Origin: a virus
Lineage: Duplodnaviria > Heunggongvirae > Uroviricota > Caudoviricetes
Virus record (IMG/VR): IMGVR_UViG_2657245112_000001
Length of the DNA: 6,943 nucleotides
Reading direction: 5' to 3' (one strand)
In this document: positions 6,434-6,739 of the stretch, piece by piece
Position numbering within the stretch: the first letter of the stretch is position 1
How the letters are laid out: every line of letters begins with the position of its first letter
Program-made: the position numbers and the translations under genes
Notes under the pieces: generated by a model
Database searches by the model: none
The model's input: only the letters and a program-made list of their open reading frames with translations
What the model was told of the DNA's origin: nothing

Positions 6434-6739
6434 ATGAGTAACTGGTGGCAGGAACTATTACGTTTCTTCCTGCGTGGTCTTACGCTACAACAGTTAATTC
6501 ATATGCTTATTATTTTAATTGCCTTGATAATAATCACCCCAGCATCAATTAAAGAGTGGGTAGATATAAGGAACCCCGAAATACTTCCAGATCACTGGAT
6601 GTATTACGCAATGCTTTTGTGTATCAGTTATGTTCTGAACAGGGGGATGGAGTTTATATTTCTGGCATCTTCAGACAGATATAAAAAATATCTCAGTAAG
6701 AGAGATGAGGCTAAAGTAATTGTGGAGACTGAGCGCTGA
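6434..6739 (+). CDS. Small predicted membrane protein, 101 aa; divergent AT-rich gene, candidate superinfection-exclusion (SieB-like position) or other moron function
   Basis: Track ORF 6434..6739. GGAG sits 8 nt upstream of the ATG. Hydrophobic stretches LIHMLIILIALIIITPA and WMYYAMLLCISYVL. Visibly lower GC and many ATA/AGA/AGG/TTA/CTA codons compared with the flanking genes. It is the only plus-strand gene in the window. Confidence 0.65.
   Translation: MSNWWQELLRFFLRGLTLQQLIHMLIILIALIIITPASIKEWVDIRNPEILPDHWMYYAMLLCISYVLNRGMEFIFLASSDRYKKYLSKRDEAKVIVETER

What the first reader, a model, noticed from the sequence alone, without database searches (positions are those of the whole stretch)
6434..6739. 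AT-rich, oppositely oriented small membrane-protein gene embedded in the early-left operon
It is the only plus-strand gene in the window, visibly lower in GC with atypical codons, and encodes a 101-aa protein with one or two predicted transmembrane helices. Its position (between the immunity-proximal gene and the cIII/kil block, antisense to leftward transcription) matches where lambda and P22 carry sieB. Prophage membrane proteins of this kind often mediate superinfection exclusion or abortive infection. It is much shorter than the SieB proteins I recall, so it may be a different or truncated exclusion factor.
Basis: partly seen in the sequence, partly recalled or inferred. Interest (0 to 1): 0.55.

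Follow-up and report, generated by a model that had tools for sequence, protein, structure and literature searches.

The report
sieB gene cut short by IS10
The "small membrane-protein gene" is the first 101 codons of an ordinary 179-codon prophage sieB (superinfection-exclusion) gene that an IS10 insertion sequence has cut in two, so it is a gene remnant and not a new exclusion factor.

Summary
It is not a short gene, though. Window 1-6735 is 100% identical to a lambdoid prophage of EHEC-type E. coli, and intact copies of that prophage carry a 540-nt, 179-aa sieB. From base 6736 to the window's end (6943) the sequence is 100% identical to the inside end of IS10 (annotated as ISVsa5). The ORF's TGA stop (6737-6739) comes from the IS10 terminus CTGA.

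Complete genomes with an IS10 at the same spot show the full 1,329-bp element, a 9-bp target duplication (GACTGAGCG) and the remaining 78 codons of sieB beyond it. RefSeq already annotates this ORF as a sieB pseudogene, "incomplete; missing C-terminus".

The truncation removes conserved C-terminal motifs and also cuts the nested Esc product, which starts at Met24 by alignment with P22. The sieB promoter region is intact, so a membrane-anchored stub may still be made, but exclusion function is most likely lost.

The exact 101-aa product occurs on only 7 contigs. The site fits the IS10 target consensus and was hit at least twice independently, in both orientations. This is ordinary and already known, so interest is low.

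The parts
6434..6736 (+). sieB 5' fragment, codons 1-101 of a 179-codon gene. All 101 residues are native SieB sequence. The last base (C6736) is also the first base of IS10 and happens to match the native base.
   Evidence: 100% identical to intact sieB in E. coli O103 RM8385 (L003 3335-3874, 179 aa) and many other genomes. Pfam SieB and PHROG_1301 match the N-terminal half of each profile only. PGAP annotates it as 'incomplete; missing C-terminus'.
6737..6739 (+). TGA stop codon supplied by the IS10 terminus (CTGA...), not by sieB.
   Evidence: The intact allele reads ...GAG CGC CTA TTC... at this point. The window reads ...GAG CGC TGA GAG ATC CCC. Both IS10 ends start with CTGA, so either orientation gives the same 101-aa product.
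6727..6735 (.). Left copy of the 9-bp IS10 target site, GACTGAGCG. The right copy lies beyond the window.
   Evidence: The same 9 bp flank both ends of the IS in UMNF18 and in O111:H11 88-19539. It matches 5 of 6 specified positions of NGCTNAGCN and fully fits NPuCNN-NGPyN (consensus sequences as quoted in PMC4574204).
6736..6943 (-). Inside end of IS10 (annotated as ISVsa5, IS4 family), 208 bp. It holds the terminal repeat CTGAGAGATCCCCTCATAATTTCCCC and the last 64 codons of the transposase (6752-6943, stop at 6749-6751) on the - strand. The window ends inside the element.
   Evidence: 0 mismatches in 208 bases to the 1,329-bp IS copy in L004, read from its inside end. The translated fragment equals the C-terminus of that 402-aa transposase, which matches PF01609 at E=1.5e-24. 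PGAP names it 'IS4-like element ISVsa5 family transposase'.
6365..6395 (+). Counterpart of the P_sieB promoter annotated in P22, retained intact upstream of the fragment.
   Evidence: P22-pbi annotates P sieB at L010 527-557. Those columns are identical in the window, P22 and a lambda-like phage. The simple sigma-70 consensus scan found no site here, so promoter activity is inferred from homology only.
6198..6219 (-). Terminator-like hairpin followed by a T-run on the leftward strand, between the sieB promoter region and the 286-aa gene. It is context, not part of the disrupted gene.
   Evidence: It marks the left edge of the block that is about 90% identical in lambda-like and P22-like phages.

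Best explanation
The ORF is the 5' remnant of a prophage sieB gene interrupted by an IS10 (ISVsa5) insertion.

Shown:
- IS10 inserted after codon 101 of a 179-codon sieB, at the target GACTGAGCG.
- The IS terminus supplies an immediate TGA, so the reading frame closes after 101 native residues.

Inferred:
- The stub keeps the sieB promoter region, the N-terminal transmembrane helix and the weaker second hydrophobic segment.
- It lacks the 78 C-terminal residues, which carry the motifs conserved between this allele and the P22 and lambda-like SieB proteins.
- The nested Esc product starts at Met24 by alignment with P22's annotated esc, so it is truncated at the same point.
- The most likely consequence is loss of SieB-type abortive exclusion, and of Esc, from this prophage. 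At most an inert membrane-anchored peptide is left.
- The window probably ends 204 bp past the ORF because a short-read assembly broke inside the repeated IS.
For: - Window 1-6735 has 0 mismatches to the O111:H11 88-19539 prophage. Window 6736-6943 has 0 mismatches to IS10 read from its inside end.
- Intact prophages are 100% identical up to 6736 and then continue with 78 more sieB codons.
- Complete genomes with an IS at the same site show a 1,329-bp IS10, a 9-bp duplication GACTGAGCG and the rest of sieB in frame beyond it.
- The same junction is present in four independent assemblies.
- PGAP calls it a sieB pseudogene missing its C-terminus.
- The family profiles are only half covered by the stub. 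The intact allele covers them fully.
- 87 of 91 phage records with a homologue cover at least 80% of the 179-aa protein.
- The C-terminal motifs LF.SL, LAFAV.ANN, F.IP and ECY.RFAGK are shared with P22 and lambda-like SieB at about 48% identity and lie entirely beyond the break.
- Esc is annotated as starting at codon 25 in P22, which aligns with Met24 here.
- The exact 101-aa product is on only 7 contigs. The intact site is present in 78 complete E. coli genomes.
Against: - The window does not contain the far end of the IS or the second copy of the target duplication. A simple insertion in the source strain is therefore inferred from other genomes with the same junction.
- Loss of function is inferred, not measured. 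No experiment on C-terminally truncated SieB was available to me, because the primary paper PMC204922 is not held.
- The promoter region is intact, so the stub may be expressed, and an activity of the membrane-anchored part cannot be excluded.
Confidence: 0.9

Rival explanations
1. The truncated stub still does something. It is expressed from P_sieB as a membrane-anchored fragment and either keeps part of the exclusion activity or interferes with SieB proteins made by co-resident prophages.
For: The promoter region is identical to the one annotated in P22. The start codon and the strong transmembrane helix are retained. EHEC genomes often carry several lambdoid prophages with sieB (thousands of matching places).
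Against: All conserved C-terminal motifs are lost. The form is rare, on 7 contigs, and is defined by an IS junction and not by a selected stop codon. There is no evidence that short forms are conserved; homologues in phages are full length.
Confidence: 0.07
2. It is a distinct, naturally short membrane exclusion or abortive-infection gene that only occupies the sieB position.
For: The ORF has a proper ATG and stop, low GC and a transmembrane helix.
Against: It is 100% identical at the nucleotide level to codons 1-101 of a 179-codon sieB, and its stop codon lies inside the IS10 terminal repeat. RefSeq annotates it as a pseudogene.
Confidence: 0.01
3. The sieB/IS10 junction is an assembly chimera at a contig end and not a real insertion.
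For: The window ends 208 bp into a multicopy repeat. Draft contigs end at the same distance.
Against: The identical junction occurs in four independent assemblies, including the UMNF18 chromosome, where both junctions and the 9-bp duplication are present. A closed O111:H11 genome has an IS10 at the same target. A duplication of 9 bp at a consensus-like target is the signature of real IS10 transposition (PMC4574204).
Confidence: 0.02

Closest known systems
SieB / Esc of Salmonella phage P22 and phage lambda (Pfam PF14163, PHROG_1301)
   Same: - The locus is the same: opposite in direction to the leftward early operon, between the cIII/kil side and the N-like antiterminator gene.
- The upstream P_sieB region is nearly identical.
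- The intact allele aligns end to end with P22 and lambda-like SieB at about 48% identity, and the Met that starts Esc is conserved.
- According to the literature, SieB aborts lytic growth of superinfecting heteroimmune phages, and Esc, encoded in frame within sieB, counteracts it (PMC10883804; PMC3224144; PMC12197685).
   Different: The window copy holds only residues 1-101 of 179, and the conserved C-terminal 78 residues are split off by IS10. The allele itself, even when intact, is a divergent type with at most 50% identity to any SieB in the phage collection. It is 13 residues shorter than P22 SieB.
IS10 (IS10R of Tn10; annotated as ISVsa5, IS4 family) insertional gene disruption
   Same: Terminal sequence, 1,329-bp length, 402-aa DDE transposase, 9-bp target duplication and a target close to the hot-spot consensus.
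   Different: Nothing unusual. Only the inside-end 208 bp lie in the window.
RefSeq annotation of the same allele (UMNF18_RS22360; KP540_RS20405)
   Same: Same junction and same 303-nt coding remnant, annotated 'super-infection exclusion protein B; incomplete; missing C-terminus'.
   Different: In 88-19539 the IS is in the opposite orientation. In UMNF18 the prophage to the left differs, and there are 3 base differences within the fragment.

Membership tests
SieB (PF14163 / PHROG_1301) | Significant sequence match to the family profile | tested here: met
   PF14163 at 43.9 bits against a gathering cut-off of 26, E=2.3e-11. PHROG_1301 at E=1.8e-51.
SieB (PF14163 / PHROG_1301) | Full-length protein covering the whole family profile (about 180-193 aa) | tested here: not met
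   Only profile positions 2-73 of 147 and 2-101 of 193 are covered. The intact allele covers 2-127 of 147 and 2-180 of 193. The window therefore holds a fragment of a family member, not a functional-length member.
SieB (PF14163 / PHROG_1301) | Position between the N-type antiterminator gene and the ral/cIII side, transcribed against pL, with its own promoter | tested here: met
   In intact and IS-bearing complete loci an N_peptide (PF25694) gene follows sieB. The P_sieB region is identical to the one annotated in P22. In the window itself the N side is replaced by IS10.
SieB (PF14163 / PHROG_1301) | Nested in-frame Esc product | tested here: inconclusive
   The Met aligned with P22's annotated esc start is conserved (Met24), but the Esc frame is truncated at the same IS junction. 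No expression data are available.
SieB (PF14163 / PHROG_1301) | Abortive exclusion of heteroimmune superinfecting phages | not testable with these tools
   This needs plating or one-step growth assays.
IS10 / ISVsa5 (IS4 family) | Terminal inverted-repeat sequence and internal sequence of IS10 | tested here: met
   208 of 208 bases are identical to a complete 1,329-bp copy read from its inside end. The terminus is CTGAGAGATCCCCTCATAATTTCCCC.
IS10 / ISVsa5 (IS4 family) | DDE transposase | tested here: met
   The 64-residue fragment is identical to the C-terminus of the 402-aa transposase, which matches PF01609 at E=1.5e-24. The fragment alone is too short to hit Pfam.
IS10 / ISVsa5 (IS4 family) | 9-bp target-site duplication at a consensus-like target | tested here: inconclusive
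   Only the left copy (6727-6735) lies in the window. Both copies of GACTGAGCG are seen in UMNF18 and 88-19539 at the same site. The target matches 5 of 6 positions of NGCTNAGCN.

The most novel reading that the evidence does not exclude
sieB in this EHEC prophage family may be a recurrent target whose loss is selected, for example because removing SieB/Esc-type abortive exclusion eases the build-up of several lambdoid or Stx prophages in one cell. Alternatively, the stub that keeps its promoter may act on SieB proteins of co-resident prophages. The facts behind this reading: IS10 has hit the same 9-bp site at least twice independently (both orientations in an identical prophage, plus a third prophage background), and an IS3-family element has hit another site in the same allele.
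Probability: 0.06. Interest if true: 0.35.

Novelty: already known. Interest (0 to 1): 0.07.

Why it matters
It matters little beyond correct annotation. The ORF should be labelled as a sieB pseudogene fragment (sieB::IS10) and not as a new small membrane or exclusion protein.

In practice, this prophage probably no longer provides SieB-type exclusion. A 1.3-kb IS10 also now sits in the leftward early operon, between the N-like gene and cIII/kil/erf.

The case also shows how a contig end inside an insertion sequence can create a tidy-looking short ORF, because the IS10 terminus CTGA supplies an immediate stop codon.

Tried and rejected
- **Rfam scan of the whole window:** no family reached its gathering score.
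- **Sigma-70 consensus scan of 6050-6943:** no promoter-like site. Promoter retention therefore rests only on identity to the P_sieB annotated in P22.
- **Pfam and PHROG on the 64-aa right-edge fragment:** no hits because it is too short. It was identified by 100% identity to the full transposase instead.
- **Primary sieB paper (PMC204922):** not held. The biology of SieB and Esc is taken from secondary sources and from the P22 GenBank annotation.
- **Met72 as the Esc start:** I considered this because phrog_37662 (108 aa) matches residues 72-179 exactly. I rejected it because P22's annotated esc starts at the Met aligned with Met24, and Met72 is not conserved in P22 or lambda-like SieB. phrog_37662 probably collects late start calls.
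- **Large protein-database searches and structure prediction:** not run, because the nucleotide-level junction evidence was already decisive.

Full report
**Observation.** The window contains an ATG-to-TGA ORF of 101 aa at 6434-6739 on the + strand.
- Its GC content is 38.3% against 45.7% for the window, which puts it in the lowest 1.3% of 303-nt windows. GC3 is 0.416 and lies inside the range of the neighbouring genes (0.337-0.516), so 'atypical codons' is not supported.
- Kyte-Doolittle analysis gives one strong transmembrane segment at about residues 16-40 (peak 2.65). A weaker hydrophobic segment at about 55-78 peaks at 1.48, below the usual 1.6 threshold.
- All other genes called across the identical prophage region are on the - strand, including kil (window 4917-5069) and cIII (5054-5185).

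The descriptive part of the finding is therefore largely right.

**What it is.** The protein matches the SieB families, but only their N-terminal halves. Pfam PF14163 gives E=2.3e-11 over profile positions 2-73 of 147, and PHROG_1301 gives E=1.8e-51 over positions 2-101 of 193.

A nucleotide search of complete E. coli genomes showed many prophages that are 100% identical from window 6100 up to about 6736 and then diverge. One genome (UMNF18) continued through to the window's end, and the annotation there is 'IS4-like element ISVsa5 family transposase'.

In intact prophages such as E. coli O103 RM8385, sieB is 540 nt and 179 aa. It reads ...GTG GAG ACT GAG CGC CTA TTC AAT... across the point where the window reads ...GTG GAG ACT GAG CGC TGA GAG ATC CCC....

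The sequence from 6736 onward, CTGAGAGATCCCCTCATAATTTCCCC..., is the inside end of IS10. All 208 bases to the window's end are identical to a complete 1,329-bp IS copy. The minus-strand ORF at the right edge is the last 64 residues of its 402-aa DDE transposase, which matches PF01609 at E=1.5e-24. The ORF's stop codon (6737-6739) is therefore supplied by the IS terminus, and all 101 residues are native SieB residues 1-101.

**Proof that this is a transposition event.** The window ends inside the IS, so its far junction cannot be seen here. Two genomes with an IS10 at the same position supply it.
- In UMNF18 the left junction is identical to the window's. The right junction reads ...GGGGATTCATCAG|GACTGAGCG|CCTGTTCAAT..., a 9-bp direct duplication of GACTGAGCG followed in frame by the remaining sieB codons.
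- In the closed genome of O111:H11 strain 88-19539, the prophage has 0 mismatches to window 1-6735. It carries IS10 at exactly the same 9-bp target with the same duplication, but in the opposite orientation, with the outside end next to the sieB 5' part.
- Three draft contigs (L005-L007) and UMNF18 share the window's orientation.

The target matches 5 of 6 specified positions of the classical IS10 hot-spot consensus NGCTNAGCN and fully fits the broader NPuCNN-NGPyN (PMC4574204). The two orientations in identical flanks show at least two independent insertions. UMNF18, with a different prophage to the left and 3 base differences in the fragment, may be a third insertion or a recombinant.

Both IS10 ends begin with CTGA, so either orientation yields the same 101-aa product. 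This explains why the exact protein look-up found both. Draft contigs L005 and L006 stop 204 bp beyond the ORF, exactly as the window does. This suggests the window's right end is an assembly break inside the repeat (inference).

**What was lost.** The intact 179-aa allele aligns end to end with P22 SieB and lambda-like SieB at about 48% identity. Conserved C-terminal blocks (LF.SL, LAFAV.ANN, G.P.A.SL, F.IP, ECY.RFAGK) all lie beyond residue 101. In the phage collection, 87 of 91 records with a homologue cover at least 80% of the 179 residues, so the family is a full-length family.

P22's GenBank record annotates esc as starting 24 codons into sieB. That Met aligns with Met24 here, so the Esc-type product is truncated at the same point.

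According to the literature, SieB stops macromolecular synthesis midway through the lytic cycle of superinfecting heteroimmune phages. Esc, encoded in frame within sieB, counteracts it, and the antisense RNA sas switches translation between the two (PMC10883804; PMC3224144; PMC12197685; PMC7380047).

The region upstream of the ORF, including the counterpart of the P_sieB annotated in P22 (window 6365-6395), is identical to P22 and to a lambda-like phage. The stub is therefore probably still transcribed. That is inference, since a simple consensus scan finds no sigma-70 site there.

**Mechanistic reading.**
- Shown: the window carries a sieB::IS10 allele encoding SieB residues 1-101.
- Inferred, about 0.9 overall: the allele is a loss-of-function remnant. 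A membrane-anchored stub may be made but lacks the conserved soluble part.
- Inferred from established IS10 biology (three promoters near the termini, including pOUT; Simons et al. 1983, as listed in the references of PMC4574204): in the window's orientation the outward promoter pOUT lies at the far end, on the N side. It would read into the sieB 3' remnant, antisense to the N-like gene. Leftward pL transcription must also now cross 1.3 kb of IS10, in the same direction as the transposase gene, to reach cIII, kil and erf. None of this was testable here.

**Frequency.** This sieB allele type occurs in 114 of 5,426 complete E. coli genomes. In 78 of them a single match covers at least 80% of a 301-nt query centred on the insertion site. 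That count includes at least two strains whose sieB is interrupted further downstream by an IS3-family element (query covered only to base 250). The exact 101-aa product is on 7 contigs in the large assembly collection. RefSeq/PGAP already annotates it as a pseudogene, 'incomplete; missing C-terminus', in both complete genomes that carry it.

**Comparison and verdict.** The ORF is a fragment of a SieB family member. The sequence-match and locus criteria are met, but the full-length criterion was tested and not met. Its right neighbour is a standard IS10. Nothing here lies outside known kinds, so the finding is an ordinary IS-disrupted gene that is already annotated as such. The only mildly interesting residue is the repeated IS targeting of sieB in this prophage family, which could reflect a hot spot (the favoured reading) or selection for loss. 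Interest is low.

Noticed in passing
window 6727-6943; L004 6303-7631; L002 4545-5873: IS10 sits at the identical 9-bp target in both orientations within prophages whose 6.7 kb of flank is 100% identical (window and draft contigs versus O111:H11 88-19539). It also sits there in a different prophage background (UMNF18, with 3 base differences in the fragment). This means at least two independent hits on one site.
   Followed up: partly
L011 2350-4017 (E. coli 07_3636; also 2013C_3653): The same sieB allele is interrupted at a different site by an IS3-family element, leaving a 142-aa ORF. PGAP annotates that ORF as an ordinary SieB protein and not as a pseudogene.
   Followed up: partly
window 5210-6180 (-): A 286-aa, extremely charged Glu/Ala/Lys/Arg-rich ORF has no Pfam hit. 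PGAP annotates it, together with about 100 nt upstream, as a 'TolA' pseudogene with an internal stop. The short upstream frame MSEVTDLVVIEKANAMTVI ends in TAG. The arrangement is 100% conserved in many EHEC genomes, so the internal stop may be a real two-ORF arrangement and not decay.
   Followed up: no
window 6192-6507, especially 6330-6416: A block is about 90% identical in lambda-like, P22-like and Stx phages while both flanks diverge. The non-coding part is nearly invariant between the window, P22 and a lambda-like phage. It contains two copies of CCCCTACAG[C/A]GAGA (6369-6382 and 6403-6416) and the P_sieB counterpart. This is also where the P22 antisense RNA sas would be expected to act; that was not examined.
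   Followed up: no
L003 3548-3871 (residues 72-179 of intact SieB): phrog_37662 ('unknown function', 108 aa) matches exactly the Met72-to-end part of this SieB allele. That PHROG family therefore appears to consist of late start calls within sieB and not a separate protein family.
   Followed up: partly
around L003 3554 (about codon 73 of sieB): In O26:H11 11368 and many related genomes, identity to this sieB allele stops abruptly about 69 nt into the site-centred query. This indicates a mosaic recombination joint inside sieB, with a different C-terminal half.
   Followed up: no
window 1154-1456 and about 2072-2629 (L009 2208-2357 and 3111-3530): PGAP flags the Lar-like and Ead/Ea22-like genes of this prophage as incomplete pseudogenes. 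The other gene caller, and the ORF list, give an apparently intact 100-aa Lar-family ORF and a 185-aa Ead/Ea22-family ORF. The two annotations disagree and this is unresolved.
   Followed up: no
window 1-157 (-): By coordinate mapping onto L009, the window starts inside the prophage excisionase gene, with the integrase just beyond the left edge. The + strand ORF at 26-235 is therefore antisense to xis and probably spurious.
   Followed up: partly
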